Shown here piece by piece: positions 2 to 12,139 of a stretch of 12,139 bases of DNA. The position numbers and the translations under genes are program-made. The stretch is from UHGV virus genome UHGV-0805720; one strand, given 5' to 3'. Position 1 is the stretch's first letter, and each line of letters begins with the position of its first letter. This DNA is from a virus. Under the pieces are notes generated by a model, which did not search any database, was not told the DNA's origin, and was given only the letters and a program-made list of their open reading frames with translations.

Positions 2-292
2 CTATCCCCTGTGTGCCTTGATAAGTGTATGGCTAAGCCTATCATGAGCTTGTGGGCAGCAGGTTTGAAAACGCTAAACTGCTGCTGCGGTCATAACAAA
101 GATGTTCCAAGCATCATTATCCCAGAAGATGCAGATCCTAAAGCTTATGCCAAAATACTGACCCGATACCCCAGCACCTTCCTGATCGGAAAATGGTGTC
201 ACGATGAACTCCAATGGTGGATAGCCTATGGCAGTATAGGCACCACTTTTGGCTTCCCAGCTTTGTCAGAGCGCTATGTCAAGGTGCCATAA
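2..292 (+). CDS. hypothetical protein, probably 5'-truncated by window edge
   Basis: Reading frame is open from nt 2 to stop TAA 290-292; the ORF track starts it at GTG 11, with in-frame ATGs at 29 and 44. No convincing SD before any of these, so the gene most likely begins upstream of the window. No family recognised. Confidence 0.4.
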   Translation, partial: LSPVCLDKCMAKPIMSLWAAGLKTLNCCCGHNKDVPSIIIPEDADPKAYAKILTRYPSTFLIGKWCHDELQWWIAYGSIGTTFGFPALSERYVKVP

Positions 293-301
293 TAAAATTT
301 A

Positions 302-319
302 AGGCCTCAAACGAGGCCT
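302..319. terminator. GC-rich hairpin (AGGCCTC-AAAC-GAGGCCT), putative terminator or RNA stability element
   Basis: Perfect 7-bp stem with AAAC tetraloop, 10 nt after the stop of the 2..292 ORF. The U-rich tract is on the minus-strand side (TAAATTTTATTAT), not the plus side, so function for the plus transcript is uncertain. Confidence 0.35.
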
Positions 320-396
320 GTGCCTTCATAAATTGCCCCACCCTGTGTGATTACCTTCCTGAATAAAATACCCTCTCAGATCCCTTAAAATTAAGC

Positions 397-425
397 TTGA
401 CACCGACACCGGGTTTGTATATGAT
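397..425 (+). promoter_or_regulatory. sigma70-type promoter, TTGACA-N17-TATGAT
   Basis: -35 TTGACA at 397-402, 17-nt spacer, -10 TATGAT at 420-425; SD GAGGAG at 444-449 and ATG at 456 follow at the expected distance. Confidence 0.55.
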
Positions 426-455
426 TCTCTCACCTACCAAACAGAGGAGACTGTC

Positions 456-863
456 ATGGAGAATCTTGCAAGTGTAAACGTCGAAATTGTTAAACTAAAG
501 TTCTTGAGATTTCGAGACCCTAATTCTTTAACAGCCATACTGATGGATACCCACTTCACGCCAGGGAAAGAGTATACTGCCTTCCGTTATATTCACGGAG
601 ATCACGAATCGGCCTATAGTGTGAATACAAACCTCGGCGAGGGATATTTCATCAAAGATATCACAGATCACTTGTGGGGTATGTGGGAATTGGTGGAAGA
701 AGAGAATAAATCCCTTCCCAAAGAGATTTGGGTGCACACCTTCCACACAGGTAAGTTCGGAGGTACGGAACATAAGTCTATCCACTATGATGAAGAAAGT
801 GCCATCAAACAACAAGCTGTGCTTGGTGGATCTGTAGAAAAATTTGTTAAATGCGAGGACTGA
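456..863 (+). CDS. hypothetical protein (135 aa)
   Basis: ATG 456 preceded by GAGGAG SD with 6-nt spacing; stop TGA 861-863; sits downstream of the consensus-like promoter. No family recognised. Confidence 0.7.
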   Translation: MENLASVNVEIVKLKFLRFRDPNSLTAILMDTHFTPGKEYTAFRYIHGDHESAYSVNTNLGEGYFIKDITDHLWGMWELVEEENKSLPKEIWVHTFHTGKFGGTEHKSIHYDEESAIKQQAVLGGSVEKFVKCED

Positions 864-866
864 GAA

Positions 867-1067
867 ATGGCTGATTTTTGCAAAGATTGTTCTGAAGAGT
901 TGTTTGGCTTTGACTGCAAAGATTTGGAAGGTCTGATCACTGAGGATCAGTGGAAAGAAGGTTATGCAGCACCTGTTATTTGTGAAGGTTGCGGTTACAC
1001 CTATGTGGACCACAAGGGTAAGCGAGTCAAGCCGTCTGAAGATGGGGCATGTTGGGAGTATTACTAA
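867..1067 (+). CDS. small Cys-rich protein (66 aa), putative zinc-ribbon
   Basis: ATG 867 lies 3 nt after the upstream stop, with GAGGA SD 7 nt upstream. Two CxxC pairs (C5/C8 CKDC, C39/C42 CEGC) plus two further Cys. Ends 5 nt before the intrinsic terminator. Confidence 0.65.
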   Translation: MADFCKDCSEELFGFDCKDLEGLITEDQWKEGYAAPVICEGCGYTYVDHKGKRVKPSEDGACWEYY

Positions 1068-1071
1068 CTAT

Positions 1072-1105
1072 AAAAAGAAAGGGGCCAAACGGCCCCTTTT
1101 TTATT
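1072..1105. terminator. bidirectional rho-independent terminator
   Basis: Stem AGGGGCC (1080-1086), loop AAAC, stem GGCCCCT (1091-1097), flanked by an A-run (1072-1080) and a T-run (1097-1102). Lies between the convergent gene ends at 1067 (+) and 1115 (-). Confidence 0.75.
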
Positions 1106-1114
1106 TACTACTTG

Positions 1115-2080
1115 CTAAAGAGAGAAAGTTGCGTAGGCTCCCAGACGATACTGCTGGTCACCAGGGAACATAACACCTATAGAGGCTGTCCCTAGAATCC
1201 TGCCTTCCTTTCCAGACTCCATTCTGAACCCTACCCATCCTGAACTTCTTGCAGCCTCGATGTTGTCGCTATACCCGAAAGTGGCAAGATCGTCAACACC
1301 AGCCCCAAACAGCAACTGAAGCTGACTTCTCGGAAGCCCTATAATTTCAGGAATATATGCACCAAAGTACACCATCTGCCCTACCTTAGGACCGCTGCCG
1401 TACTCCATCGGCTTGCTTGTAGAGAAAGTCTTCATACCAGAAGTCCCTGCCGGATTAGGGTATGCCCCGTTTGTTGCTGTGCCTATCCACATTCTCCACT
1501 GAGGTGCCATCTGTCTGACAGTGAAAGATGTTGAAGACGTTTTGCGGCCTGCATCATCCGTAACTACAAACTTTATAGTGACATTACCAGGGGCTTTAAA
1601 TGTTACCAATCCTGTGGTAGCATCCACTGTTGCAATGTTAGTATTACTACTTTCCCAAGTCTTTCTAACCCCTGGCACATTGGAAGGGGTAATAGAAGGT
1701 TCCTGCATCTGCAGTTTACCGCCCACAATCCCTATGCCGTTACCTGGATTATACAACGCACCAACTTCATCTACAATGTTACCTGCCTTGAGGCTGTACT
1801 TTTTAGAGAAGTTGTAAGTGCCGTTATATGCGTGTGTCCCTGAGAAGGTTACATCTGCCTTGCCGTTGGAGATGCAAACCAAAGCATACTTCCTGTCAGG
1901 CAACTGTGCCCCAGTTTCTGGGTGAGTTTTACCCACCTGGAACACGCTCGGGTCCGTAGAGTCGTGGCTATCACTAACAGAGCTTGGACCACCCATCAAC
2001 TGTGACAAGCAATTCCTTACCCATGTCCAGTTATTGTCACTGGAGAAGTCTACAGTCAAAATCAAACACAACCCACTCAT
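1115..2080 (-). CDS. phage structural protein with bacterial Ig-like (Big_2-type) domain, likely tail fiber/virion decoration protein (321 aa)
   Basis: Long ORF, last gene of the minus-strand block. The segment '...NTNIATVDATTGLVTFKAPGNVTIKFVVTDDAGRKTSSTSFTV' matches the Big_2 pattern from memory. Start uncertain: ATG 2080 (weak GGAAG SD, overlaps upstream gene by 44 nt) or ATG 1996. Confidence 0.65.
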   Translation of the reverse strand: MSGLCLILTVDFSSDNNWTWVRNCLSQLMGGPSSVSDSHDSTDPSVFQVGKTHPETGAQLPDRKYALVCISNGKADVTFSGTHAYNGTYNFSKKYSLKAGNIVDEVGALYNPGNGIGIVGGKLQMQEPSITPSNVPGVRKTWESSNTNIATVDATTGLVTFKAPGNVTIKFVVTDDAGRKTSSTSFTVRQMAPQWRMWIGTATNGAYPNPAGTSGMKTFSTSKPMEYGSGPKVGQMVYFGAYIPEIIGLPRSQLQLLFGAGVDDLATFGYSDNIEAARSSGWVGFRMESGKEGRILGTASIGVMFPGDQQYRLGAYATFSL

Positions 2081-3554
2081 TTGGCTTCCACACAGGTGTT
2101 GTGATCAACTTACCAACACCTCCACCCTGAAGGGTAGGAGATTGTTCAGTGATCAGGGCAGAGTATGCCAGAGTTCCCAACTGCATAGTCTGGCTTGCTG
2201 TCCTCACTACCTTAGAATCAGCATCTGTGAAGTTGTTGATGATCTGGAATGTGCCGTAAGTGTTTTTACAGGTAATTCTGGCATTCAGTGTATCAATCTT
2301 TCTCACATCTGCCATGGCAGTGTTAGACACAGAGAAGTCAGAAGCTTTAGCTGAGTTTGCTGCAACAGCCGGATCAACGTTGAGGGTTGCGTTGAACTGG
2401 CAGGCAGGAGTAACTAGTAGCTTGTTATCACCTATTTGCTTCCATGAAACACTTTGAACAGGGAGATTCCATTTAATACCTGAGAAAACTTTAGCAACCC
2501 TTGGTCCCAGAGCTCCAGTCCTGGTGTCTTTACAGCACATGGACATGGTAATCGTTGACGGAGTAGCCTGACCAAACAGTTGCTGTGCTTTTGCAGAGGA
2601 CATAGTGTAGAAATTGTCCTTAACAAACTCATCAGCAGCCAAAGATCCATCAGCTCTCCACCACTGAACCTGATACCCTGTTTTGTCCCAACCACCGACC
2701 TGCTTCAAGTCCTCCCAAGAGATTTCCAGATCCCCAGTGGTAGGATTGATTGCAGCAGTTCCAGGTGTTCCAGAGGACCATAATGGGATATCGAACCACG
2801 CTGGTTTAACAGATTGTACTGCGTTCGGTCCTATTGCAGCAGCAAGTTGCTGCCCCATTAACACACGAGCATCTTTTACCAAGCCCCATTCAATCATGGA
2901 CCCGGAGTAGCCTTCTTTCTTATAGGCCGAAGATCCGTTCAAATGGATAAGCCTGCTGCAGTCGAAACCATACGCCCCGCCACCGTTAGGATCTGCAAAG
3001 TTAGTTATGATTCTATCCCTTATATTTTTCCATGCCCTGCCTCCAATCTCATAATCATGGTCATAACATCTCTGCAGCGTTGTCCAGCAAATGATTGCCA
3101 TTCTTCTGCCACCAGTAAACCCGAAAGCGCCGTCATTCAACTCTTTCCACAGATAGCAGTTAGTTGCCCACATAGCTCTGTGGATATTGAACCAGTTTAT
3201 AGACTTAGCAGAATTGTCCCACTGAGTTCCCGGTAATTCAGGCCACACAGCATTCACCAGCATATCCTCTGTGCCAGCATCGACCAAGAAGCCTCTTACC
3301 TTCCTACCCATCCCTTCTCTGTCTTTAGCAATCCAATTGCCAAACAGCCTCAGTTTTGGACCATAAACAACATCTTCAGGGTGCTCAAAAGAGACATACT
3401 TCAAGTATACCGTAGGATCACCGTAGGTGCCATCACAAACACTTTTATGCATGTTCTCACCCAGGTCTAGACGAAGTCCTGTCACCACTTTAGATGTGTC
3501 GGTGAATTTGTCTGTTAAATCAAATTCATACCACCACCATCCGCCACCAAGCAT
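2037..3554 (-). CDS. large Trp-rich hypothetical protein, possibly a carbohydrate-active or receptor-binding accessory protein (505-546 aa)
   Basis: Frame is open from a TTG at 3677 (116-nt overlap with the upstream gene). The first ATG is at 3554, only 7 nt after the upstream stop at 3562-3564, which suggests termination-reinitiation coupling. Contains GGGWWWYEF and many W/Y/G. Function not recognised. Confidence 0.6.
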   Translation of the reverse strand: MLGGGWWWYEFDLTDKFTDTSKVVTGLRLDLGENMHKSVCDGTYGDPTVYLKYVSFEHPEDVVYGPKLRLFGNWIAKDREGMGRKVRGFLVDAGTEDMLVNAVWPELPGTQWDNSAKSINWFNIHRAMWATNCYLWKELNDGAFGFTGGRRMAIICWTTLQRCYDHDYEIGGRAWKNIRDRIITNFADPNGGGAYGFDCSRLIHLNGSSAYKKEGYSGSMIEWGLVKDARVLMGQQLAAAIGPNAVQSVKPAWFDIPLWSSGTPGTAAINPTTGDLEISWEDLKQVGGWDKTGYQVQWWRADGSLAADEFVKDNFYTMSSAKAQQLFGQATPSTITMSMCCKDTRTGALGPRVAKVFSGIKWNLPVQSVSWKQIGDNKLLVTPACQFNATLNVDPAVAANSAKASDFSVSNTAMADVRKIDTLNARITCKNTYGTFQIINNFTDADSKVVRTASQTMQLGTLAYSALITEQSPTLQGGGVGKLITTPVWKPNEWVVFDFDCRLLQ

Positions 3555-3561
3555 AAATTTC

Positions 3562-6500
3562 TTAGCACCGCGCAGTGTCTGTATCTGATATTCTCTTATC
3601 CCCTGCAAAAGGTGAATCAGCAAACTGATAGTGCAGAGCAGTCTCAAATAGATGTGTTGAGGTTCCGTTTTCTGCAAGAACTTGCTTACCTATTAAGTCA
3701 CACTTAATGATCATCACAACACGCTTGTAGCCGTTTGTTATCGGAACCTGCATAGATATGGATGTTCCGTCCATGTTCGATCTTAGTGCGGTCATGATGA
3801 TGTAAGGATCAACAGCATTACCCAAAGTTTCAGGTCCTGGAATTATCTTGTACTTCTTGACCTGCCCCATGAATCTGTCGCTGGCGTAAGTTGCAGCCTC
3901 GAAGCAAGATCCACCACCAGGTAGTTCCCCCGGACCCCAGAAAAATGCGCCATAACAGTTATAAAACCACTTGTTAGGGTCATATTTATTCTTGAAGGTC
4001 TGAACCTCGTTGGCCTGTTTTGTCAAGAAAACCTGCGTATCTGTGAAGATTGCAGGGTTTACTCTCGCCTGTCTTGGAGGGTAACCTGTTGATTGGTTAA
4101 ACCACTGATTGCAAGAGATATCCCTCATGTAGTCATAATCAGAGTATTTGTTTACATCTTCGTTCCAACACATGTTCAGGTTGGTACCGCCCATGCATAC
4201 AATATATTCTGCGACATACTTATCACTTCTGGTAGGAATACCTATGAACCATCTGTTAACAGGCTCATCCCAAGCTGTGCGCTCATCTTTAACGCAGATA
4301 GCAATCCAGTCATGTGTTCCTGTTTTCTTGCACACATCTCGCTTCATACCATAGTAGAACTCTTTAGTATTCGGCTCAGGTGCATTTATCAGGTAACTCC
4401 ATGCCTGATTTGCATAAGTCCCATTGGTGCGCGGATCATGATCAAAGGCATACATGATGATCCTTTCCCCACCAAGATGTTCGCCAAGAGTAACTTTGAC
4501 ATTCACATCGCCGTAACCGTTGCGAACAACATCCATATTGTCAATAGAGATGCCTCTAGGAGTGTAGGCAATTTTCAGTGAGTTATCCTCACTAGTGCCA
4601 CCAAGAGTGATCCCTATGTTGTTTGTTGTCCCGTCGGCATATCTTACTGTAGCTTCCCAGCGTATTCCGAAATATCCTACATCATGGCTGACAATTTTCA
4701 GTGTACGAGCGCCAGGGTGAGGTTTTCCAGGATCAGGCCAAGGGTCTGGGTGTTCGTGGACAGTTAACGACGTTCCGTTCTGCTCGTTAACCTGCAACAT
4801 TTTACCACCTCTGCCGTTAGGGTTGAACTCCCATACGGCCTGTGTCTGCACCAAGTTGTTGTAGGTATTTCTTCTCTGATCATAAATCTCTTGGGTAACA
4901 TCATAAGTGACTGATCCAGCATCCATTCTGTGAAGTCGGACCATGTACGATGTATCCCCTTCTACTGCAGGCTGAGTCCCATTCAGTCCGAAGTATACAG
5001 TATCGTTAACATGGAACTGCTTGTTTCTACCAACGGTATGCCACTTGCCGTTGGACGGATACGCAGGAACTATGGTGTTCCAGTTCAAAGTCCTTGTCGT
5101 GTGAGTTCTGCCTGTGCCATGCTTGTCATGATAGGTTATTTTTACAGAGTACAGGCCACGTCTGTTAACATTCCTGTTATACTGGGTAACAATAACTTCA
5201 TTGGCCCCACCGTGGTTCCAGTTGGTAGAGAATTGGTAATTTGCATCTGTAACAACCGTGCCTGCAGCATTTACCAGTTCAATCTTGTCAATAATGAACG
5301 TAGCCCCCTCTGGCTGAGGCTTCAATTTCATCTTGACCGTGTCACCAATGTAAATATTGCTAACGCTGCTAACACCGTTAACGTCGAAAATATCATCAAC
5401 ACCCCAACTGTCTACCGGGACATTTTTATACCAATTCTCAGGAACCTCTGTGAACCCCTGACTATTAAGTCTGCCGCCAAACAGGTTGTTAGATCCTGCA
5501 AAACTTCCCCTTGGAATTCCTGACCACCAAAGTTTACCATTAACAACAGTAAATGTTCCTAAGAAACCTTCCCTGTGGATTCCTTGGAAATAAACACTCT
5601 CTGTCCAGCTAACTGGCAGGCGTTGCTCAACATATTTAGCTGTAGCAAGAGCTTGATAGTGGATAAAATCGGCCCTAGGACTATTGTTTGCAGATTGTGC
5701 ACCAATATCATTACATAAGTTGCGAGAGAACCCACGATACTGCTTAGTGCCATTATTGAAGAAAATGCCGCTTGTGCCGTACCCACGAGCCATTATTACC
5801 TCATGGGTGTAGGTGATATTCAGTTCCCGCCATGTATCATCTCCCCAAATGTTTTGACCATAGAATACGTTAACAAGCTGCTGGTCATCGGGTCTATGCA
5901 TCCTCTGTGTAGCAATTATTGCCCCGTTAGGACCACACATAAACCCTTTCCACTCCTCGTCTGCAGGAATGCCTCTCAAATCGTTACGGGTGATCTGTAC
6001 AGGAGGCCAAACAAGGTCATTTCTACTGTTGTTTCTCAGAAAGTCGTATCCAGCAATCCAGAAACCTCTAGGACCACCGAAGATAACAGAGTTGTCATGC
6101 ACCTCGCAATTAATGCTTTGGTTTTTCCAAGGACCTGTTTCAGGATTCTCAGATGTCTCACCAATTTTTACAGGGGTTGCATGTTGATTTTTATCCACAT
6201 GTAAAGATCCATAGGTGTTGTTACCAGACCCATACAGGTGTAAAATACCGTTACCTTCAGCCTCTGCAATAACCCAGACAGTGTTGTTAATGCCGCCCAT
6301 CACCTCAACAAGGCGCTCTGGGTGGGTGTCAAGGTGCAATCCTTTAACGATTTGTTCTGGAAGAGGTGTCCACTCCCTTACACAAACATCATTACCGCCT
6401 GCAGCATCAGACCCAATAAGCCCTGCAGTACAGCCGATGTAGAAAAACTGATTATCAAAAGTTCGGATCACAAACGCACGGTCTGCTCTCCACACATGAT

Positions 6501-6753
6501 CGACGTTCCAGGCAGCCTCATTAGGGTAGTTTATCGTGTCAAGATCCCCAGTCCTACACTCCCCGAACCTGTTGTACCCTGTGATATTAAGCTGACCATT
6601 GTCAAAAAGTATAGCTAAGCTATTTACATAGGCTACTGTAGTGCTTGTACCGTCACTGTTGTCTATTGGGTATGACAGAACAGCAAGTTCCTTAACTCCA
6701 CCCCTCTTATCGAGGAAATGACGACCAAGTTTTAGCAAAGGGATTGGAAGCAT
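3562..6753 (-). CDS. very large phage structural/host-interaction protein (1063 aa), function unknown
   Basis: Uninterrupted 3.2-kb ORF; ATG 6753 with GGAGA SD 5 nt upstream. N-terminal region has glycine-rich repeats (e.g. 'YGSGNNTYGSLHVD') faintly reminiscent of beta-propeller repeats; not verified. Confidence 0.8.
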   Translation of the reverse strand: MLPIPLLKLGRHFLDKRGGVKELAVLSYPIDNSDGTSTTVAYVNSLAILFDNGQLNITGYNRFGECRTGDLDTINYPNEAAWNVDHVWRADRAFVIRTFDNQFFYIGCTAGLIGSDAAGGNDVCVREWTPLPEQIVKGLHLDTHPERLVEVMGGINNTVWVIAEAEGNGILHLYGSGNNTYGSLHVDKNQHATPVKIGETSENPETGPWKNQSINCEVHDNSVIFGGPRGFWIAGYDFLRNNSRNDLVWPPVQITRNDLRGIPADEEWKGFMCGPNGAIIATQRMHRPDDQQLVNVFYGQNIWGDDTWRELNITYTHEVIMARGYGTSGIFFNNGTKQYRGFSRNLCNDIGAQSANNSPRADFIHYQALATAKYVEQRLPVSWTESVYFQGIHREGFLGTFTVVNGKLWWSGIPRGSFAGSNNLFGGRLNSQGFTEVPENWYKNVPVDSWGVDDIFDVNGVSSVSNIYIGDTVKMKLKPQPEGATFIIDKIELVNAAGTVVTDANYQFSTNWNHGGANEVIVTQYNRNVNRRGLYSVKITYHDKHGTGRTHTTRTLNWNTIVPAYPSNGKWHTVGRNKQFHVNDTVYFGLNGTQPAVEGDTSYMVRLHRMDAGSVTYDVTQEIYDQRRNTYNNLVQTQAVWEFNPNGRGGKMLQVNEQNGTSLTVHEHPDPWPDPGKPHPGARTLKIVSHDVGYFGIRWEATVRYADGTTNNIGITLGGTSEDNSLKIAYTPRGISIDNMDVVRNGYGDVNVKVTLGEHLGGERIIMYAFDHDPRTNGTYANQAWSYLINAPEPNTKEFYYGMKRDVCKKTGTHDWIAICVKDERTAWDEPVNRWFIGIPTRSDKYVAEYIVCMGGTNLNMCWNEDVNKYSDYDYMRDISCNQWFNQSTGYPPRQARVNPAIFTDTQVFLTKQANEVQTFKNKYDPNKWFYNCYGAFFWGPGELPGGGSCFEAATYASDRFMGQVKKYKIIPGPETLGNAVDPYIIMTALRSNMDGTSISMQVPITNGYKRVVMIIKCDLIGKQVLAENGTSTHLFETALHYQFADSPFAGDKRISDTDTARC

Positions 6754-6762
6754 TGTGTTCTC

Positions 6763-6793
6763 CAGATAAGAAAACCGCCCCGTCAGGAGCGGT
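6763..6793 (-). terminator. intrinsic terminator/attenuator between the 581-aa and 1063-aa genes
   Basis: On the minus strand: CCGCTCC-TGAC-GGGGCGG hairpin (6/7 bp paired) followed by TTTTCTTATCT, directly after stop TAA 6802-6804. No room for a separate promoter before the 1063-aa gene start. Confidence 0.5.
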
Positions 6794-6801
6794 CAGATAT
6801 A

Positions 6802-8547
6802 TTAACGTTGTGCAATAACCACATCCACAATATCACCAACACCACAATATGTCAATTGTAGCAAGGTGACGCTGTTGGCCTTGTTGTTAATAACAGGCGT
6901 TGCCGACAAGATGGCATACTTATCGTGTAAAGTCACGTTGTGACCTACAGCATCCTGAATGACATAGATGATTGCAGTGAACGGGTATGGTTTATCTTCA
7001 GCCGATGTTCCAGGCCACTGACCTATTGTAAAGTCACCTTTTGCGTGGACAACATACATATTGGCCTGCCCGTTAGGTGTCCATGTCCCACTGGATGCAT
7101 CAACCTCTTCTAAGTCAAAGTCTACTTTTCCTGCGTGGAAAGCAGGGGCAGTGATAGTTTTACCAGCCTCAATTCCTTGAGAGGTGGTTATCTTACCACT
7201 AGAGTTGATACCATTACAGACAAAGTTAACATTAGAGAAGTCTGGCAACCACCCGGTGACAGCACCTGATATTTCAAGGTTGTGGAGGTAGGTAGTTCCA
7301 GTCCCTGCTGCGTTCAAACTCACATCCCCATTAACTTGCAAGTTTCTGCTAACGTTGCAGTTTTCAGCGTTTGCAGTTGTTGCCGTTAAAGTGGTGGCAG
7401 TCAGGGAGGTAATTGCACCCTTATTGGCTGTAATCCCTTCTCCTTCAAAAGTGGCACGCTCGTTCACATTCAGAGTGTTTAAGGACAGGTTCTGCACAGA
7501 GGCTGTACCACGAATAACTATTGCCCCGCCAACCTCTAAATCTCCATTGATCAGTGCATCCCCTGTGCTTTCGATGTAGCTAGGGTAAATCATGGTGCCA
7601 TCAACAGAGTAGGTTATCCCTGTAACAGTGCCTGTCACTTCCAGGTTTTTAACCCTGGTGATACCATCAACCTGCAGTGTTGGTTCGGTCGCCGCCTTCA
7701 TGGCATTACCACGGATATACACATAGTCAAAGAAGTTGTTTCCAAGACCATTAAAATGCACATCATTGTTGTTTGCCACAGGTTTTCCAGATGTTATAGT
7801 GTCAGCTATAACCCTGTGCGTTGACACTTCGTGAGGCTGCAGTTCTGTGCTTTTCCAGTCCGTATGCTTAGGATCGCTCCAAGCGAAGGTAAGTGTAGAA
7901 GTATTTGCCGTGAGGATTAGGTTTCTGAAGCGTGCCGTAGAGTCTGCTCCGTTGACAGGCCCTTGTAGGGTAAGAGTCCCTCCAACTATGGTATTGGCAA
8001 GCTCTGAAAGACCTTTTACCACCAAAGAACCTACGGTAACTTTCATCCCCTCCATAGCTTCAAATATACTATCCACATAGTCAACAACAAACTCCGTGTT
8101 TGCTATAGACTCTGACTTATCATCCATTGGAGGTGTCGGTACTCGCGGATCACCTTCAAACCTCGGGCTGTTAAGCTTTGCATAGTACTTTGCCATTACT
8201 GCAGAGTCGGTATACAATCTCCAGTTTGCAGATTGTGAAGGGTCTGCTGGCATTCTAACCGGATTAGCTTTTGATGCCGCAGGCGCGTACCACCACTGAG
8301 GACCAGTGTCACCTTTAAACTCATAAAGTTGGTTAAAAACTGTTGTGGATGCCCCGTACGCCCAAGGAATTGGTGGCGTTTTAAAATAAAGGGTGTCAAG
8401 CATGGCTTTCCGTACCGTAGGGATGGTGGTGCCATCCTCTACGACAACTTCATCCACAGCGTTACCGTTGACAATCAAGTGCAGGCGTTCAGAATCCACA
8501 ATTACTTGATCTACCGCCTGCTCGAAGCTTGTCATGTCTTGCGCCAT
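6802..8547 (-). CDS. tail fiber/tailspike-like receptor-binding protein (581 aa)
   Basis: ATG 8547 with AAGGAGA SD. Central region is rich in short beta-strand repeats with T/N/G/V (e.g. 'TSLTATTLTATTANAENCNVSRNLQVNGDVSLNAAGTG'), typical of fibrous or beta-helical phage adhesins. Sits immediately after the tail fiber genes. Confidence 0.75.
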   Translation of the reverse strand: MAQDMTSFEQAVDQVIVDSERLHLIVNGNAVDEVVVEDGTTIPTVRKAMLDTLYFKTPPIPWAYGASTTVFNQLYEFKGDTGPQWWYAPAASKANPVRMPADPSQSANWRLYTDSAVMAKYYAKLNSPRFEGDPRVPTPPMDDKSESIANTEFVVDYVDSIFEAMEGMKVTVGSLVVKGLSELANTIVGGTLTLQGPVNGADSTARFRNLILTANTSTLTFAWSDPKHTDWKSTELQPHEVSTHRVIADTITSGKPVANNNDVHFNGLGNNFFDYVYIRGNAMKAATEPTLQVDGITRVKNLEVTGTVTGITYSVDGTMIYPSYIESTGDALINGDLEVGGAIVIRGTASVQNLSLNTLNVNERATFEGEGITANKGAITSLTATTLTATTANAENCNVSRNLQVNGDVSLNAAGTGTTYLHNLEISGAVTGWLPDFSNVNFVCNGINSSGKITTSQGIEAGKTITAPAFHAGKVDFDLEEVDASSGTWTPNGQANMYVVHAKGDFTIGQWPGTSAEDKPYPFTAIIYVIQDAVGHNVTLHDKYAILSATPVINNKANSVTLLQLTYCGVGDIVDVVIAQR

Positions 8548-8556
8548 GATTTCTCC

Positions 8557-8823
8557 TTAAGCTTTTTGCTCTTCGCTTTTAACGTGGTCAGGGTGCTGGC
8601 AACCCCACCGGAGCGAGATGAATTTGCTAATAAGCTGGGGACAGGCTACCGATGGTGCGTATATCCACGCATACCATTCAGGAAGTGTATCATTGTACCC
8701 CATGTGAATAAACACCCCAGTCATCACTGCCATGCCGATGTTCGACCATAGCTTAGATTGGGACACTTTTGTAGGGTCATCAGATGCCGCAACCAGTCCC
8801 CATAAAAACTGAGTCAGTTTCAT
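8557..8823 (-). CDS. small membrane protein (88 aa), holin-like architecture; function unknown
   Basis: ATG 8823 preceded by AAGAGGG SD that overlaps the stop of the tail-fiber remnant. Two to three hydrophobic segments and a charged C-terminus (KSEEQKA). Stop overlaps the SD of the 581-aa gene. Confidence 0.6.
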   Translation of the reverse strand: MKLTQFLWGLVAASDDPTKVSQSKLWSNIGMAVMTGVFIHMGYNDTLPEWYAWIYAPSVACPQLISKFISLRWGCQHPDHVKSEEQKA

Positions 8824-8849
8824 TTACCCTCTTTTTAAGCATAAGATAT

Positions 8850-8879
8850 AGTGATCCATTGACCGTTTACAAGTTTTTG
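8850..8879 (-). repeat. conserved 30-bp 3' tail-fiber junction, copy 1 (29/30 identical to 10906..10935)
   Basis: Minus-strand CAAAAACTTGTAAACGGTCAATGGATCACT encoding QKLVNGQWIT; the flanking about 15 bp on each side are also partly similar, while the rest of the two genes is diverged at the nucleotide level. Confidence 0.7.
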
Positions 8880-9001
8880 GATAGCACCTGTCCAATAGTC
8901 GCCTTGATATGGGTGTTTGTAAGCGTAGTTACCAGAACACATTACATGCCCTACGTAAACTCTTGATTCTCTGTAGGTGGTTCTGAAGCGGTTTGCTATT
9001 C

Positions 9002-9760
9002 TTACATCGTCAATCCCCTGCTGGGCATAGGAATGGTAAGATTGCCGCTGCTGTCTGCACTATTACCGTTAACCCTACGAACCACATTTCTACCACCGAC
9101 TATTGAATGCTGCCCCCGCACAGTTCCATCATTACAATCCAATCTTCCACCAACTTGGGCATTACCGCAAGATTGTTGTCCATTGACGGTAGCTCTTGGT
9201 ATCGTGACAGCATTAGCATTTGCAGAGGAACTTTTTGCGTCGTTGCATTCAAGATTCCCCTGGATAGCCAGTCTTGCACGATTGGCAGTTATAGCATTGA
9301 GCTTCATGGCAGAAAACACAGGCTGTCCACCAGAAGGTTGGAATCTCCAACGGAACCCGTCTATTTGATTAGAAGAGTCATCAAGATCTGCACCGTCTGC
9401 ACCACCAATATTGTCCATAATCCAGAAATCCATCAGCGTCTTGTCTGGAGTTATAGTGGTATATATTGCCGCACTATCTGTGGACGCAGATGCGAACTGT
9501 ATTCTTTGAAGACCTAGAGTTTGAGTCTGAGTCATTGTGTCCCCAGATTTGTCAACATACAGGTCGTCCATTTCTTCAGGGGAGTATACATTGAGAACTT
9601 GGCGTGCAGCAGCTTTGTCTGGAACGTCTGCTAGATTATTGGTAACCCTTAAAAATCTATTATCCCATCCTGGGACAACATCTTCTGTTAAATGTCTTAA
9701 CCACGCAGAAAGCATGTGAAGTTCAAAGTTAACAACTTCACATGCCACTCTTTGTGTCAT
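9002..9760 (-). CDS. tail fiber protein, central fragment (longest intact ORF of the frameshifted paralog)
   Basis: 252-aa ORF with clear homology to residues about 60-285 of the 346-aa tail fiber. Its ATG overlaps the stop of the 39-aa N-terminal piece (ATGA) and it has no SD of its own, so it is unlikely to be an independent gene. Confidence 0.5.
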   Translation of the reverse strand: MTQRVACEVVNFELHMLSAWLRHLTEDVVPGWDNRFLRVTNNLADVPDKAAARQVLNVYSPEEMDDLYVDKSGDTMTQTQTLGLQRIQFASASTDSAAIYTTITPDKTLMDFWIMDNIGGADGADLDDSSNQIDGFRWRFQPSGGQPVFSAMKLNAITANRARLAIQGNLECNDAKSSSANANAVTIPRATVNGQQSCGNAQVGGRLDCNDGTVRGQHSIVGGRNVVRRVNGNSADSSGNLTIPMPSRGLTM

Positions 9761-9906
9761 ATCCCAACCTTCAGTCTCTCTTCTTTTTTTGGTTGAGACT
9801 TATTCAACTCTCCTGTATTTTCAAGCACAACATCCTGATTGGCCCAAATATCAAGAGGGATAACTGGTTTAGCCATCACGTTCTCCTGAGAAAATTCCTT
9901 AGGACT

Positions 9907-9935
9907 ATTTTAACACTTTAGAGAACAAAATGCAA
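9907..9935 (-). promoter_or_regulatory. candidate sigma70-like promoter upstream of the second tail fiber gene
   Basis: On the minus strand: TTGCAT (9935..9930), 17-nt spacer, TAAAAT (9912..9907); lies between the stop of the 104-aa gene and the SD AGGAGA of the tail fiber N-terminal ORF. A weak hairpin (ACGGA..TCCGT) precedes it. Confidence 0.3.
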
Positions 9936-9965
9936 GAACGGAGTCCTTTCCGTCCTGACCTTTGT

Positions 9966-10280
9966 TTACCTTTTACTATGCTCTACGAGCATGTGCAAAA
10001 TCTTTTGCACGTCAGCTCGGATACCGGAGACATCTGTTCTGACATCTTGCTTAAGGTCGTTAATATCGGCCTCTAGCTTACTTAACCGGGTCTCGATAAT
10101 GGAATCAAGTCTATCTTTTGTAACCATGCTATTTTTCACTAAGATGAGGTCTTTCTCCAGCTCATCCAACCTCTTGGAAATACCTTTCCATTTGGTGTGC
10201 CACTGGTTGAAAGCCCATACACAGATCGGGACAACGGTACCCATGCAGATACCGTACAACGCCGCCAAATCCAACTCCAC
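9966..10280 (-). CDS. small membrane-anchored coiled-coil protein (104 aa), GTG start; function unknown (i-spanin-like topology)
   Basis: GTG 10280 with strong SD GAGGAGG 4 nt upstream, placed 9 nt after the Tfa stop (translational coupling). N-terminal hydrophobic helix 'LAALYGICMGTVVPICVWAF' followed by a heptad-rich, charged C-terminal region. Confidence 0.65.
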   Translation of the reverse strand: MELDLAALYGICMGTVVPICVWAFNQWHTKWKGISKRLDELEKDLILVKNSMVTKDRLDSIIETRLSKLEADINDLKQDVRTDVSGIRADVQKILHMLVEHSKR

Positions 10281-10291
10281 AACACCTCCTC

Positions 10292-10876
10292 TTAGAGGGT
10301 AGGTCGTTCCGGGAAGAAAATGTCAGGGGCTTTAGATGTATCTATTTCAAGAAGTTTTACCCTGTACATTTTCAAATCTCTGATGTTGCGTTTTTGGTCA
10401 TCAGTAAGATCATATTCAAGGTCAATCATGTCTTGATAGGCACCAATTCTAGCAGTAGCCCAAGCAAGTTCTGTCTCTATGACACCCTCTGCCTGTTGAA
10501 CAAAGAATTCATTATCTGTGACAAATTCATCACCAACTAAACGCAAAGCGTCGTGGTGGAGCATAATGTTTTCTGGTACCTCTTCTTTTTTGGCGATAAC
10601 CACACGAAGACCTGGAGCAGGCCATAAGGCATCAGGCTCTTCTGTAGATGTCTTAAGAATACCCTTCTCGTCAACAAGTAGGAATATACAACCAGGGTTT
10701 TCTTGTCGTAATGTTCTGGACTGCACATACCAATCGCCGTCATCATTACGTAAAAAATACCCTGTGTATGCAGTATAATCCTCAACCTCTTGAGGGGTTA
10801 ACTCTTTGGTTTCCTCATTGGCAGAGTATTCGCCAGACCCTGGCTGGTAAAGTTTAAACTCTTGAAGTATTTTCAT
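10292..10876 (-). CDS. tfa: tail fiber assembly chaperone (Tfa / Caudo_TAP family)
   Basis: 194 aa; ATG 10876 with GGAGGA SD, directly downstream of the tail fiber gene. C-terminal motif '...LKMYRVKLLEIDTSKAPDIFFPERP' matches the conserved Tfa ending (..W.KYR..L..VD.S.APDI.WP..P) as recalled for lambda Tfa / P2 G / Mu U. Confidence 0.85.
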   Translation of the reverse strand: MKILQEFKLYQPGSGEYSANEETKELTPQEVEDYTAYTGYFLRNDDGDWYVQSRTLRQENPGCIFLLVDEKGILKTSTEEPDALWPAPGLRVVIAKKEEVPENIMLHHDALRLVGDEFVTDNEFFVQQAEGVIETELAWATARIGAYQDMIDLEYDLTDDQKRNIRDLKMYRVKLLEIDTSKAPDIFFPERPTL

Positions 10877-10890
10877 GCTAGTCCTCCGAT

Positions 10891-11931
10891 CTATGCATAA
10901 TTAACAGTGATCCACTGACCGTTTACAAGTTTTTGTAAAGGTCCTGCCCAGTAAGTTGAACCACGCATTTCTTTTTTATCACCAAAATGCCAGCCTGTGA
11001 CAACGTAGCCATTGCGGACTGGAGATTCAGAAACACCGTCAACAAGTCTTGCACCAATTCTAATGTCTTGCACACCTGTTTGCGGAATAGTGATCGTTAC
11101 ATCGCCGTTACCGTTGGCGGTTACACCGTTCACAGAGCGGACCACATTTCGGTTACCAACAACACAGTGCTGACTTCTCACAACCAGACTATCACAACTG
11201 GTGCCGCCATTGACATACAGTGACCCTGTAGTTAACTGGCTTCCCACATTGCAGTTGGTGAATGTTGCTGTGCTAGTAATGGTAAGGTTGTTGCACCTCA
11301 TGTTGTCTACAATTTCAACATTACCTATCACTTTTAGCAGTGCACGGTTAGCTGTGATGGCATTCAGGTACATCAAAGTAAACTCAGGGTTAATGTCCGG
11401 CTGAGTTGGTTGAAATCTCCAGCGGAATGCGTCTACTGTAGATGTTCCACCATCATCGAACGACCCTGTATTGTCACTCAATCCAAAATCAAGAGTTGTC
11501 TTGTCTGGACCGATGGTTGTCTCTATCCAAGCCTTATCCGTCTCGGCAGCTTTAAAGTTGATACGTTGCAGACCTAAAGGGCCTGTCATTGTATCCCCTG
11601 TAACTTTTACATACCTGGCATCTGCCTCTTCCTTAGTAATAATCCCAAGGTTTTTACGGGCAACAGGAATGTTCAAAAGATCGCTCAAGTTATTATCCCG
11701 TACCAGATAACGACCTTCTTGAGCGGGGATCTGCTCGTCAGCAATGTATTTTGCCCAAGTTCCGAGCATATTAAAAATATAGTTAAGCTCTTCACATGAT
11801 GGCTTTTGACCAAGATCCCAACCTTTTCTCCACAAATCATCAATCGGGCGCAGCCTGTTCTGTCTGTGGGTGTTAGGCAGAACCTGATCCTCCTCTGCCC
11901 AAATCTCTAATGGAAAACTAGGTTTTGACAT
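10891..11931 (-). CDS. tail fiber protein (346 aa), Tfa-dependent side-fiber type
   Basis: ATG 11931 with AGGAG SD. Its C-terminus 'GWHFGDKKEMRGSTYWAGPLQKLVNGQWITVNYA' resembles the conserved C-terminal end of P2 gpH / Mu S / lambda Stf-type fibers (from memory). Followed immediately by a Tfa chaperone gene. Paralogous to the 8835..9876 locus. Confidence 0.85.
   Translation of the reverse strand: MSKPSFPLEIWAEEDQVLPNTHRQNRLRPIDDLWRKGWDLGQKPSCEELNYIFNMLGTWAKYIADEQIPAQEGRYLVRDNNLSDLLNIPVARKNLGIITKEEADARYVKVTGDTMTGPLGLQRINFKAAETDKAWIETTIGPDKTTLDFGLSDNTGSFDDGGTSTVDAFRWRFQPTQPDINPEFTLMYLNAITANRALLKVIGNVEIVDNMRCNNLTITSTATFTNCNVGSQLTTGSLYVNGGTSCDSLVVRSQHCVVGNRNVVRSVNGVTANGNGDVTITIPQTGVQDIRIGARLVDGVSESPVRNGYVVTGWHFGDKKEMRGSTYWAGPLQKLVNGQWITVNYA
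10906..10935 (-). repeat. conserved 30-bp 3' tail-fiber junction, copy 2 (direct repeat of 8850..8879)
   Basis: Minus-strand CAAAAACTTGTAAACGGTCAGTGGATCACT encoding QKLVNGQWIT at the 3' end of the intact tail fiber gene, just upstream of the tfa SD. Confidence 0.7.
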
Positions 11932-11943
11932 TTTATCTCCTGA

Positions 11944-12139
11944 TTATGAGAAGTCTGGCGGAACAACATCTTCTACATACCCTTTCAGAGCAACCTGCCC
12001 CATATGAAGCACAGTAGACTCCCTGGCAGTAACAGTAATGCTATCAGACATCACTTGCGGGTATGCCCACACATACTGTTTTACCTCCGGGTATCTATAC
12101 TCTATAGTTGCCATGTTTCCGCAAATACATCTCCATAAA
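11944..12139 (-). CDS. hypothetical protein, 3' portion (gene probably starts beyond window end); possibly a baseplate/tail component
   Basis: Minus-strand frame is open from the window edge to stop TAA 11946..11944. In-frame ATGs at 12114 and 12130 lack an SD. Stop lies 12 nt before the tail fiber ATG. Functional guess is from position only. Confidence 0.45.
   Translation of the reverse strand, partial: LWRCICGNMATIEYRYPEVKQYVWAYPQVMSDSITVTARESTVLHMGQVALKGYVEDVVPPDFS

What the first reader, a model, noticed from the sequence alone, without database searches (positions are those of the whole stretch)
8838..8885. Near-identical 30-bp 3' junction shared by both tail fiber genes, partner at 10906-10935
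The two fibers are diverged over most of their DNA, yet their last about 10 codons plus stop region are 29/30 identical and each is followed at once by an SD and the next gene. This is the signature of a conserved recombination linker used for host-range module exchange in P2/Mu/P1/lambda-type fiber genes. Here the repeats are direct, so recombination between them would delete or duplicate the tfa, 104-aa and fiber-2 segment.
Basis: partly seen in the sequence, partly recalled or inferred. Interest (0 to 1): 0.5.

Follow-up and report, generated by a model that had tools for sequence, protein, structure and literature searches.

The report
Shared 30-bp end of two fibre genes
Two old duplicate short-tail-fibre genes of an rV5-like E. 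coli phage share a near-identical 30-base stretch that encodes a conserved end-piece of the fibre tip, most likely left by a small copy-and-paste (gene conversion) between the two genes rather than a special junction for swapping host-range modules.

Summary
The repeat is real. Window 8850-8879 and 10906-10935 match at 29/30, while the two genes are otherwise about 50% identical in DNA and 42% in protein. The genes lie on the minus strand. The 30 bases are codons -14 to -5 (QKLVNGQWIT), not the last codons plus the stop; the last four codons differ.

The window is a Vequintavirus (rV5-like) fibre cluster: fibre 1 (rV5 gp33), Tfa chaperone, a 104-aa gene, fibre 2 (gp30) and a membrane protein gene.

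The peptide is the C-terminal beta-hairpin of a Mu GpS-type fibre tip. Q and W are invariant in 25 diverse homologues.

DNA identity exceeds what amino-acid conservation plus codon usage gives (simulated P about 0.003). No RNA structure or nucleotide-level constraint was found. In an uncultured sister lineage the same peptide is encoded with 7/30 differences between copies. That lineage also shows two independent 30-100-nt fibre 2 to fibre 1 conversion tracts just upstream.

The "module-exchange linker" reading is not supported. In single-fibre relatives the swapped cassette runs from the VQDIR motif through the whole tfa gene, so the motif sits inside it. None of 117 GenBank genomes carries the predicted deletion or duplication junction.

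In this window fibre 2 is broken by two 1-nt deletions.

Low interest: an ordinary feature of a described locus.

The parts
8850..8879 (-). 30-nt repeat, fibre-2 copy; codons QKLVNGQWIT (codons -14 to -5 of fibre 2)
   Evidence: exact pattern; translation.
10906..10935 (-). 30-nt repeat, fibre-1 copy (one synonymous difference, CAG versus CAA); residues 333-342 of fibre 1
   Evidence: Q333 and W340 are invariant and G338 is invariant or nearly so in 25 homologues. Predicted C-terminal beta-hairpin, strands 326-336 and 339-342.
8836..8897 (-). Extended 62-nt repeat (81% identical to 10892-10953): last 20 codons of fibre 2
   Evidence: family D1. This is the only cross-paralogue blastn hit.
10892..10953 (-). 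Extended 62-nt repeat, fibre-1 copy
10891..11931 (-). Short tail fibre 1 (346 aa), homologue of rV5 gp33, intact; Mu GpS-type tip
   Evidence: PHROG 4465. PDB 5YVQ Mu fibre S, E 3.6e-6, and phiTE short tail fibre 9CUY, E 1.6e-19. Foldseek 5yvq_A, E 6e-7. rV5 annotation.
10292..10876 (-). Tail fibre assembly chaperone (194 aa, Caudo_TAP), homologue of rV5 gp32
   Evidence: Pfam PF02413, E 8e-12; PHROG 136.
9966..10280 (-). 104-aa conserved protein with an N-terminal hydrophobic segment (rV5 gp31); function unknown
   Evidence: PHROG 5345. Homologous 107-aa gene follows tfa in single-fibre relatives.
8835..9876 (-). Short tail fibre 2 (rV5 gp30 homologue), split into three frames in this window by two 1-nt deletions (about 9769-9772 and about 9013-9018); intact (347 aa) in relatives
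   Evidence: The near-identical contig L030 has the missing base at 9769.
8557..8823 (-). 88-aa membrane protein gene (rV5 gp29) that follows fibre 2
   Evidence: PHROG 1322.

Best explanation
The 30 bases encode QKLVNGQWIT, the conserved C-terminal beta-hairpin of a Mu GpS-type receptor-binding fibre tip. That tip is shared by the two ancient paralogous short-tail-fibre genes of Vequintavirus (rV5 gp33 and gp30).

The amino-acid sequence is held by protein-level selection. By inference, the constraint is the fold of the tip, and recognition or folding by the single Tfa chaperone encoded after fibre 1. Fibre 2 has no tfa gene of its own.

The extra identity at synonymous sites is best explained by a short-tract gene conversion between the paralogues, probably fibre 2 to fibre 1, in the ancestor of the genus. 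Since then the two copies have drifted independently (0-4 differences per genome).

The 30-mer is not the boundary of an exchangeable host-range cassette, and no natural deletion or duplication between the repeats is seen.

Shown: the repeat, the homology, the excess identity, conversion events in the sister lineage, the cassette boundaries in relatives, and the absence of recombinant junctions.
Inferred: that the island in this genus arose by conversion, its direction, and the chaperone rationale.
For: Protein constraint:
- Fibre 1 residues 286-343 align to the end of Mu fibre S in 5YVQ (PVQKNINGTWYNV) and of the phiTE short tail fibre (PIQKKVNGVWVTI).
- Foldseek's only significant hit is 5yvq_A.
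- Q333 and W340 are invariant, and G338 is invariant or nearly so, across 25 homologues whose tips are otherwise hypervariable.
- The motif is predicted as the terminal beta-hairpin.

Excess DNA identity:
- P about 0.003 for >=29/30 and 0.0003 for 30/30 under codon resampling.
- In AlexBoehm, 12 of 13 identical residues in the last block use the same codon, against 0-7 per block elsewhere.

No nucleotide-level function:
- RNA fold z-scores are -0.9 and -1.2 with no shared structure.
- Promoter and terminator scans are at background.
- Synonymous sites in the 30-mer vary among 17 genus genomes.
- The sister lineage encodes the same peptide with 7/30 differences between copies.

Conversion is active in this gene pair:
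- In sister contigs L019 and L026, fibre 1 carries 59-nt and 39-nt exact runs identical to its own fibre 2, from -93 to +8 relative to the 30-mer. Of the 21 sites in the 285 nt compared where it differs from L014 fibre 1, 18 match its own fibre 2; 17 of those 18 lie between -81 and -1.
- Contig 157310 carries an independent 29-nt tract.

Lineage pattern:
- The genus fibre-1 30-mer is closer to fibre-2 copies (0.87-1.00) than to sister fibre 1 (0.77-0.80).
- The four terminal codons also co-vary within lineages: VNYA/ISYA versus VQTL/VQTL.
Against: The island is only 30 nt, and both flanks are at background identity. A conversion tract that short with so little flanking homology is unusual, and the inference rests on few sites (3 versus 7 differences).

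There is no sign of ongoing homogenisation within the genus. Fibre 2 has AAC while fibre 1 has AAT in four genomes, and one genome has 4 differences. The AAC/AAC state in the window and in Aya could be coincidence.

The excess-identity P value (0.003) is modest and depends on a saturation null.

The role of the hairpin in chaperone recognition was not tested. The structure model has only moderate confidence (mean pLDDT 62).
Confidence: 0.6

Rival explanations
1. Protein conservation plus coincidence. The ten residues are strictly conserved, and the two copies happen to use the same codons through shared codon preference or an unusually slow local synonymous rate. No conversion took place.
For: The peptide is conserved far beyond this genus. 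Five of the nine degenerate codons are two-fold degenerate, with P(same) about 0.5 each. Within the genus the copies drift independently.
Against: The gene-wide corrected probability is 0.003 for 29/30 and 0.0003 for 30/30. The sister lineage shows that the same peptide tolerates 7 synonymous differences. Demonstrated conversion tracts lie next to the motif in relatives.
Confidence: 0.17
2. The 30-mer is a conserved recombination linker at the fibre/next-gene junction, used to exchange host-range modules between phages or between the two loci. It can also delete or duplicate the 2-kb segment between the repeats.
For: The variable tip is bracketed by conserved motifs in the family alignment, and tips are clearly shuffled between lineages; for example, P0012 carries a c-type tip on a different shaft. 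Alignment between the window and the sister lineage in fibre 2 resumes about 20 nt upstream of the 30-mer. Thirty nt of identity is enough for rare homologous recombination (general knowledge).
Against: Where cassette exchange can be mapped, the cassette is the tip plus the whole tfa gene, with its 3' boundary at the end of tfa. There is no breakpoint at the 30-mer within the genus. The motif is not conserved at nucleotide level between lineages. There is no DNA match in 5,426 E. coli genomes. Zero of 117 records have a deletion or duplication junction. The deletion would remove the only tfa gene.
Confidence: 0.1
3. The 30-mer is a nucleotide-level functional element, such as an RNA structure, a translational-coupling signal for the downstream gene, or a protein-binding or regulatory site needed at both loci.
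For: Both copies sit 15 nt before a stop codon and about 30 nt before the next gene's SD-like sequence.
Against: There is no significant or shared RNA fold. There is no promoter or terminator signal beyond background; the one terminator-like hairpin depends on the window-specific CAG. The downstream sequences are unrelated. Synonymous variation is tolerated within the genus, and 7/30 differences are tolerated in the sister lineage with identical gene order.
Confidence: 0.05

Closest known systems
Vequintavirus short-tail-fibre locus (rV5 gp33 - gp32 Tfa - gp31 - gp30 - gp29), as described for rV5 and the BASEL phages (Maffei et al. 2021, PMC8594841)
   Same: Same genes in the same order at 91-98% nucleotide identity. 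The paper already states that the genus has two paralogous short tail fibres and one chaperone homologous to Mu GpS/GpU, with little allelic variation.
   Different: The 30-nt identity island and the inter-paralogue conversion are not mentioned in the passages read. In this window fibre 2 and the gp27-like fibre carry frameshifts that are absent from the reference genomes.
Phage Mu tail fibre GpS with chaperone GpU/Tfa (PDB 5YVQ)
   Same: Homologous C-terminal tip ending in the same motif (P-x-Q-K-x-[IV]-N-G-x-W-x-x-V). A downstream Caudo_TAP chaperone gene.
   Different: Mu switches tips with the Gin invertase acting on inverted repeats. Here the repeats are direct, there are two complete fibre genes, only one has an adjacent tfa, and no invertase is annotated in the locus.
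Conserved-motif recombination in fibre genes (P2 H / Mu S / P1 S / lambda stf mosaics; T-even gp37/gp38 motifs). Recalled from Haggard-Ljungquist 1992, Sandmeier 1994 and Tetart 1998; these papers were not read here.
   Same: The variable receptor-binding tip is bracketed by conserved sequence, and tips are shuffled between lineages.
   Different: The mapped cassette boundaries lie at the VQDIR motif and at the end of tfa, not at this 30-mer. The motif is conserved as protein rather than as DNA between lineages.
Concerted evolution by short-tract gene conversion between paralogous genes (general phenomenon)
   Same: An island of excess synonymous identity. Paralogues within a lineage are more alike than orthologues between lineages. 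Independent tracts are visible in related genomes.
   Different: The tract is very short (30 nt) and old. There is no evidence of continuing homogenisation within the genus.

Membership tests
Mu GpS-type tail fibre with Tfa (Caudo_TAP) chaperone | C-terminal tip domain homologous to Mu GpS | tested here: met
   phmmer against 5YVQ chain A gives E 3.6e-6, with residues 286-343 aligned to the chain's C-terminus. Foldseek against 5yvq_A gives E 6e-7, probability 1.00, and is the only hit with E<=0.001.
Mu GpS-type tail fibre with Tfa (Caudo_TAP) chaperone | Chaperone gene of the Caudo_TAP family immediately downstream of the fibre gene | tested here: met
   Met for fibre 1: PF02413, E 8e-12, start codon 14 nt after the stop. 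Not met for fibre 2, which is followed by an 88-aa membrane protein gene.
Mu GpS-type tail fibre with Tfa (Caudo_TAP) chaperone | Chaperone binds the distal tip and is needed for trimer folding | not testable with these tools
   Known for Mu from the literature as summarised in PMC9608196. Not tested for this phage.
Vequintavirus short-tail-fibre paralogue pair (rV5 gp33/gp30) | Orthology and synteny with the rV5 locus | tested here: met
   91-98% nucleotide identity over the locus in 117 records, with identical gene order.
Recombination linker bounding host-range cassettes | Conserved stretch flanked on both sides by diverged sequence | tested here: met
   29/30 identity against about 50% in the flanks.
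Recombination linker bounding host-range cassettes | Mosaic breakpoints in related genomes coincide with the stretch | tested here: not met
   In L031, L032 and L033 the low-identity cassette spans the tip plus the whole tfa gene, and identity returns at the next gene. There is no break within the genus.
Recombination linker bounding host-range cassettes | Nucleotide-level conservation among potential exchange partners | tested here: not met
   Sister-lineage copies differ at 7/30. Single-fibre relatives use other codons. No blastn match in E. coli genomes.
Recombination linker bounding host-range cassettes | Natural recombinants (deletion or duplication) between the direct repeats | tested here: not met
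   Synthetic junction queries: 0 of 117 records have one place covering >=80% of the query; the 117 records hold 232 places in all, about two separate places each. Spacing is 2056-2061 nt in all 17 genomes read.
Inter-paralogue gene conversion tract | Synonymous identity beyond what amino-acid conservation and codon usage give | tested here: met
   Simulation P = 0.003 (>=29/30) and 0.0003 (30/30).
Inter-paralogue gene conversion tract | Paralogues within a lineage more alike than orthologues between lineages, in the tract only | tested here: inconclusive
   30-mer: 0.87-1.00 within a genome against 0.77-0.80 to sister fibre 1. Elsewhere the orthologues cluster. This rests on 3 versus 7 differences in 30 nt.
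Inter-paralogue gene conversion tract | Independent conversion events visible in the same gene pair in related genomes | tested here: met
   L019 and L026: 59-nt and 39-nt exact runs. Contig 157310: a 29-nt run. Both are fibre-2-type sequence inside fibre 1.
Invertible host-range switch (Gin/Cin/Pin type) | Inverted repeats flanking alternative tips, plus an invertase gene | tested here: not met
   The repeats are direct. No invertase is annotated in the locus of rV5 or AlexBoehm. Invertase domains were not searched for directly.

The most novel reading that the evidence does not exclude
The 30-mer, together with the upstream VRSVNG/VQDIR motifs, is an active recombination hotspot. Through it the phage population continually exchanges 3' tip segments between its two short-tail-fibre genes. 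It also produces, at low frequency, variants that delete or duplicate the tfa, 104-aa and fibre-2 block. This would be a built-in way of diversifying or tuning the secondary-receptor fibres with a single chaperone.
Probability: 0.07. Interest if true: 0.5.

Novelty: new member of a known kind. Interest (0 to 1): 0.22.

Why it matters
It matters only modestly. The analysis shows that the two short tail fibres of rV5-like phages do not evolve fully independently. Short patches of their receptor-binding tips are copied between paralogues.

It also maps the exchangeable host-range cassette in this fibre family as "tip plus whole chaperone gene", not "fibre up to its stop codon". That is useful for anyone engineering these fibres: swap the tip and its Tfa together, and keep the terminal QKLVNGxW hairpin.

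For genome scanning, it is a reminder that a short identical island between diverged paralogues can be a strongly constrained peptide plus a conversion relic rather than a dedicated recombination site.

Tried and rejected
- Exact 30-mer scan of IMG/VR found nothing. A codon-degenerate pattern was needed.
- A homologue search with only the C-terminal 83 aa returned no candidates. The full-length protein was used instead.
- The sister-lineage locus has no megablast match in GenBank phages, so it could not be named.
- RNA structure around either copy was rejected: z-scores -0.9 and -1.2, different folds.
- Promoter or terminator role was rejected: counts at shuffle level.
- Exchange with E. coli prophage fibres was rejected at DNA level: no blastn match for the fibre-1 tip plus tfa in 5,426 genomes.
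- Deletion variants: the two GenBank genomes with shorter loci (V18, APCEc02) have their deletions in the large Ig-like fibre gene, not between the repeats.
- Covariation of the Asn codon (AAC/AAC in the window and Aya, AAT/AAT in the first relatives read) looked like ongoing homogenisation. It dissolved with more genomes: fibre 2 has AAC with fibre 1 AAT in four genomes.
It was rerun with alignment A2.
- The model is of moderate quality only, so no residue-level claims are made beyond secondary structure.

Full report
**What the window is.** The window matches 117-127 GenBank phage records at 90-98% identity. All are Vequintavirus (rV5-like myoviruses of E. coli); the closest is OX460980 'Aya' at 98%.

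All relevant genes are on the minus strand. By comparison with the annotated genomes of AlexBoehm and rV5 and by family scans, the order is:
- Fibre 1, 10891-11931: 346 aa, rV5 gp33, PHROG 4465.
- Tfa chaperone, 10292-10876: Caudo_TAP PF02413, E 8e-12, rV5 gp32.
- A 104-aa protein, 9966-10280: gp31.
- Fibre 2, 8835-9876: gp30, PHROG 4465.
- An 88-aa membrane protein, 8557-8823: gp29.
- A 581-aa lateral fibre, 6802-8547: gp28.
- The large Ig-like fibre: gp27.

Maffei et al. 2021 (PMC8594841) already describe this locus. They report two paralogous short tail fibres plus one chaperone, homologous to Mu GpS/GpU, with little allelic variation.

**Checking the observation.** The 30-mer AGTGATCCATTGACCGTTTACAAGTTTTTG occurs at 8850-8879. 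It recurs with one mismatch at 10906-10935; none of 200 shuffles gave two matches. The repeat finder extends it to 62 nt at 81% identity, 8836-8897 and 10892-10953.

On the coding strand the 30 nt are CAA AAA CTT GTA AAC GGT CA[A/G] TGG ATC ACT = QKLVNGQWIT. These are codons -14 to -5 of each gene. The last four codons and the stop differ (VNYA-TAG versus ISYA-TAA), as do the six codons upstream.

The rest of the two genes is 50% identical in DNA and 42% in protein. Only 59 of 141 identical residues use the same codon. So the island is real and sharply bounded, but it is not 'the last 10 codons plus stop'.

Each stop is followed within 11-14 nt by the next gene's start codon, with an SD-like sequence between them.

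In this window fibre 2 is not intact. Two single-base deletions (about 9769-9772 and about 9013-9018) relative to Aya and AlexBoehm split it into three frames.

**Is it more than chance?** I kept the protein alignment fixed and resampled codons at every identical residue from the codon usage of 13 neighbouring structural genes. Any 30-nt window reached >=29/30 in 0.3% of 4000 simulations, and 30/30 in 0.03%. In 10 of 17 genus genomes the two copies are 30/30 identical; the others differ at 1, 2 or 4 sites. The excess over amino-acid conservation is therefore real but modest.

**What the peptide is.**
- Fibre 1 residues 286-343 align to the C-terminal end of Mu tail fibre S in the fibre-chaperone complex 5YVQ (...PVQKNINGTWYNV).
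- The same motif ends the phiTE short tail fibre 9CUY (PIQKKVNGVWVTI), whose N-terminal baseplate-attachment domain also matches at E 1.6e-19.
- An AlphaFold model (mean pLDDT 62; about 79 over the motif) places residues 326-336 and 339-342 in a terminal beta-hairpin with the NG turn. Foldseek's only significant PDB hit is 5yvq_A, E 6e-7.
- In alignments of 25 homologues at 35-96% identity, Q333 and W340 are invariant and G338 is invariant or nearly so. The roughly 45 residues between the VQDIR motif and this hairpin are hypervariable in sequence and length.

The amino-acid conservation is therefore a structural feature of the Mu GpS-type tip. Tfa chaperones bind the distal tip of such fibres (PMC9608196). 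Fibre 2 has no tfa of its own, so a shared requirement for the single Tfa is a plausible reason for both paralogues to keep the hairpin. This is an inference and was not tested.

**Is there a nucleotide-level function?**
- RNA folding of 101 nt around each copy gives z-scores of -0.9 and -1.2, with different structures.
- Promoter-like and terminator-like sites are at shuffle level.
- Synonymous sites inside the 30-mer vary among genus members: CAA/CAG, AAA/AAG, AAT/AAC and ACT/ACC/ACG.
- An uncultured sister lineage, known only from IMG/VR and ENA contigs, has the same gene order and about 70% DNA identity in fibre 1. It encodes exactly the same ten residues, but with 7 of 30 bases different between its two copies. 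These copy-specific codons are stable across seven contigs.

A conserved DNA or RNA element is therefore unlikely.

**Evidence for gene conversion.** In the sister lineage the last ~65 codons of the two fibres are 90-97% identical in protein, against about 40% elsewhere.

At DNA level most contigs (L012, L014, L021, OLOT) differ at synonymous sites throughout this region. There are two exceptions:
- In L019 and L026, fibre 1 carries exact runs of 59 and 39 nt identical to its own fibre 2, from -93 to +8 relative to the 30-mer. Over the 285 nt compared it differs from L014 fibre 1 at 21 sites, and 18 of them match its own fibre 2; 17 of those 18 lie between -81 and -1.
- In contig 157310, fibre 1 carries an independent 29-nt fibre-2-type run.

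These are two separate short-tract fibre 2 to fibre 1 conversions in the same gene pair. Their lengths are similar to the island in the window.

In Vequintavirus itself, the fibre-1 30-mer is closer to fibre-2 copies of either lineage (0.87-1.00) than to its orthologue, sister fibre 1 (0.77-0.80). In the N-terminal and middle segments, by contrast, orthologues cluster as expected. The four terminal codons also co-vary within lineages: VNYA/ISYA versus VQTL/VQTL.

The most parsimonious reading is one fibre 2 to fibre 1 conversion over the 30-mer in the genus ancestor. Purifying selection on the peptide followed, with slow independent drift at synonymous sites.

An apparent covariation of the Asn codon (AAC in both copies in the window and Aya) did not hold up. 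Four genomes have AAC in fibre 2 only.

**Testing the 'recombination linker' interpretation.**
- *Cassette boundaries.* Three single-fibre relatives (L031, L032, L033) share 80-96% DNA identity through the fibre N-terminus and shaft but carry three different tips. Identity falls to 0.3-0.5 at the VQDIR motif. It shows only a blip (0.62-0.76) at the QKLVNG motif, stays low through the entire tfa gene, and jumps to 0.9-1.0 at the start of the next (107-aa) gene. The exchanged host-range cassette is thus 'tip plus whole chaperone gene', and the motif lies inside it.
- *Within the genus.* Identity profiles show no break at either 30-mer.
- *Recombinant junctions.* Synthetic queries for the predicted deletion junction (8790-8879 + 10936-11025) and duplication junction (10846-10935 + 8880-8969) found no record with one place covering >=80% of the query. 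The 117 records hold 232 places in all, about two separate places each. The repeat spacing is 2056-2061 nt in all 17 genomes read.
- *Shorter loci.* The two shorter GenBank loci (V18, APCEc02) have lost parts of the large Ig-like fibre, not the inter-repeat segment.
- *Prophage exchange.* The fibre-1 tip plus tfa has no blastn match in 5,426 complete E. coli genomes.

The deletion would also remove the only tfa gene, which probably makes it non-viable (inference).

Alignment between the window and the sister lineage in fibre 2 resumes about 20 nt upstream of the 30-mer. This is equally explained by the motif simply being the only conserved DNA there.

**Verdict.** The family assignment (Mu/P2-type fibre with Tfa) and the idea that the 3' ends recombine are right in spirit. 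The specific claim of a module-exchange linker is not supported.

The best explanation (confidence about 0.6) is a strongly constrained C-terminal hairpin plus a relic short-tract gene conversion between paralogues. Rivals:
- Coincidence of codons: 0.17.
- A true linker or hotspot: 0.10.
- A nucleotide-level element: 0.05.

The locus is already described, and the phenomenon (concerted evolution of paralogous fibre genes) is of a known kind. Interest is low.

**Side observations.**
- The window carries four uncompensated 1-nt indels relative to all relatives: two in fibre 2, and two (about 2058 and about 3564) that split the gp27-like fibre into three ORFs.
- Metagenome contig CYGL01000828.1 is otherwise 100% identical to window 9579-12139 and has the intact base at 9769. 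At least that frameshift is therefore a sequencing or assembly error or a very recent mutation.

Noticed in passing
window ~9769-9772 and ~9013-9018 (fibre 2); ~2058-2061 and ~3564 (gp27-like Ig-domain fibre, ORFs 1115-2080 / 2037-3677 / 3562-6753): There are four uncompensated single-base indels relative to every relative examined. They split two fibre genes into three ORFs each. The 9769 site is a TT versus TTT run, and the 2058 site an AAAA versus AAA run. A metagenome contig (CYGL01000828.1, L030) is otherwise 100% identical to window 9579-12139 and is intact at 9769. At least that one therefore looks like a sequencing or assembly error or a very recent mutation.
   Followed up: partly
L019 7191-270..7191 and 9289-270..9289; L026; L018/L013 (IMGVR_UViG_3300045988_157310): An uncultured sister lineage with the same gene order shows two independent short fibre 2 to fibre 1 gene-conversion tracts in the tip-coding region: exact runs of 59 + 39 nt, and of 29 nt. 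In this lineage the two fibre tips are 90-97% identical in protein, unlike in Vequintavirus. The lineage has no megablast match in GenBank phages.
   Followed up: yes
L031 4350-5140, L032, L033 (single-fibre relatives from Logan/ENA assemblies): The host-range cassette in single-fibre relatives consists of the fibre tip (from the VQDIR motif) plus the entire tfa gene. There are at least three alleles on near-identical backbones, and identity is restored at the start of the 107-aa gene.
   Followed up: yes
GenBank MG0656xx records (hits H5, H8-H13 and others): Sixteen records named 'Campylobacter phage' with host Campylobacter jejuni are ~92% identical over this locus to E. coli Vequintavirus genomes. 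The naming or host assignment looks doubtful.
   Followed up: no
window 9935-9956 (minus strand), between the 104-aa gene and fibre 2: A terminator-like hairpin (8 bp stem, 4 GC pairs, T-rich tail) lies in the 86-nt gap upstream of fibre 2. It suggests that fibre 2 may be transcribed separately from fibre 1, tfa and gp31. This was a consensus scan only.
   Followed up: no
window 10905-10917 (minus strand): The window-specific CAG in the fibre-1 30-mer creates a 5-bp hairpin (CAGTG-GAT-CACTG) that the scan flags as terminator-like. Of the relatives read, only the near-identical contig L030 shares this CAG; the others have CAA here, so it is probably incidental.
   Followed up: partly
fibre 1 and fibre 2, codons ~30-60 (window about 11750-11840 and 9700-9790): There is a second, weaker spot of elevated same-codon use between the paralogues: 7 of 8 identical residues around the GWD motif, with an 11-nt exact run. 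It was not tested for significance.
   Followed up: no
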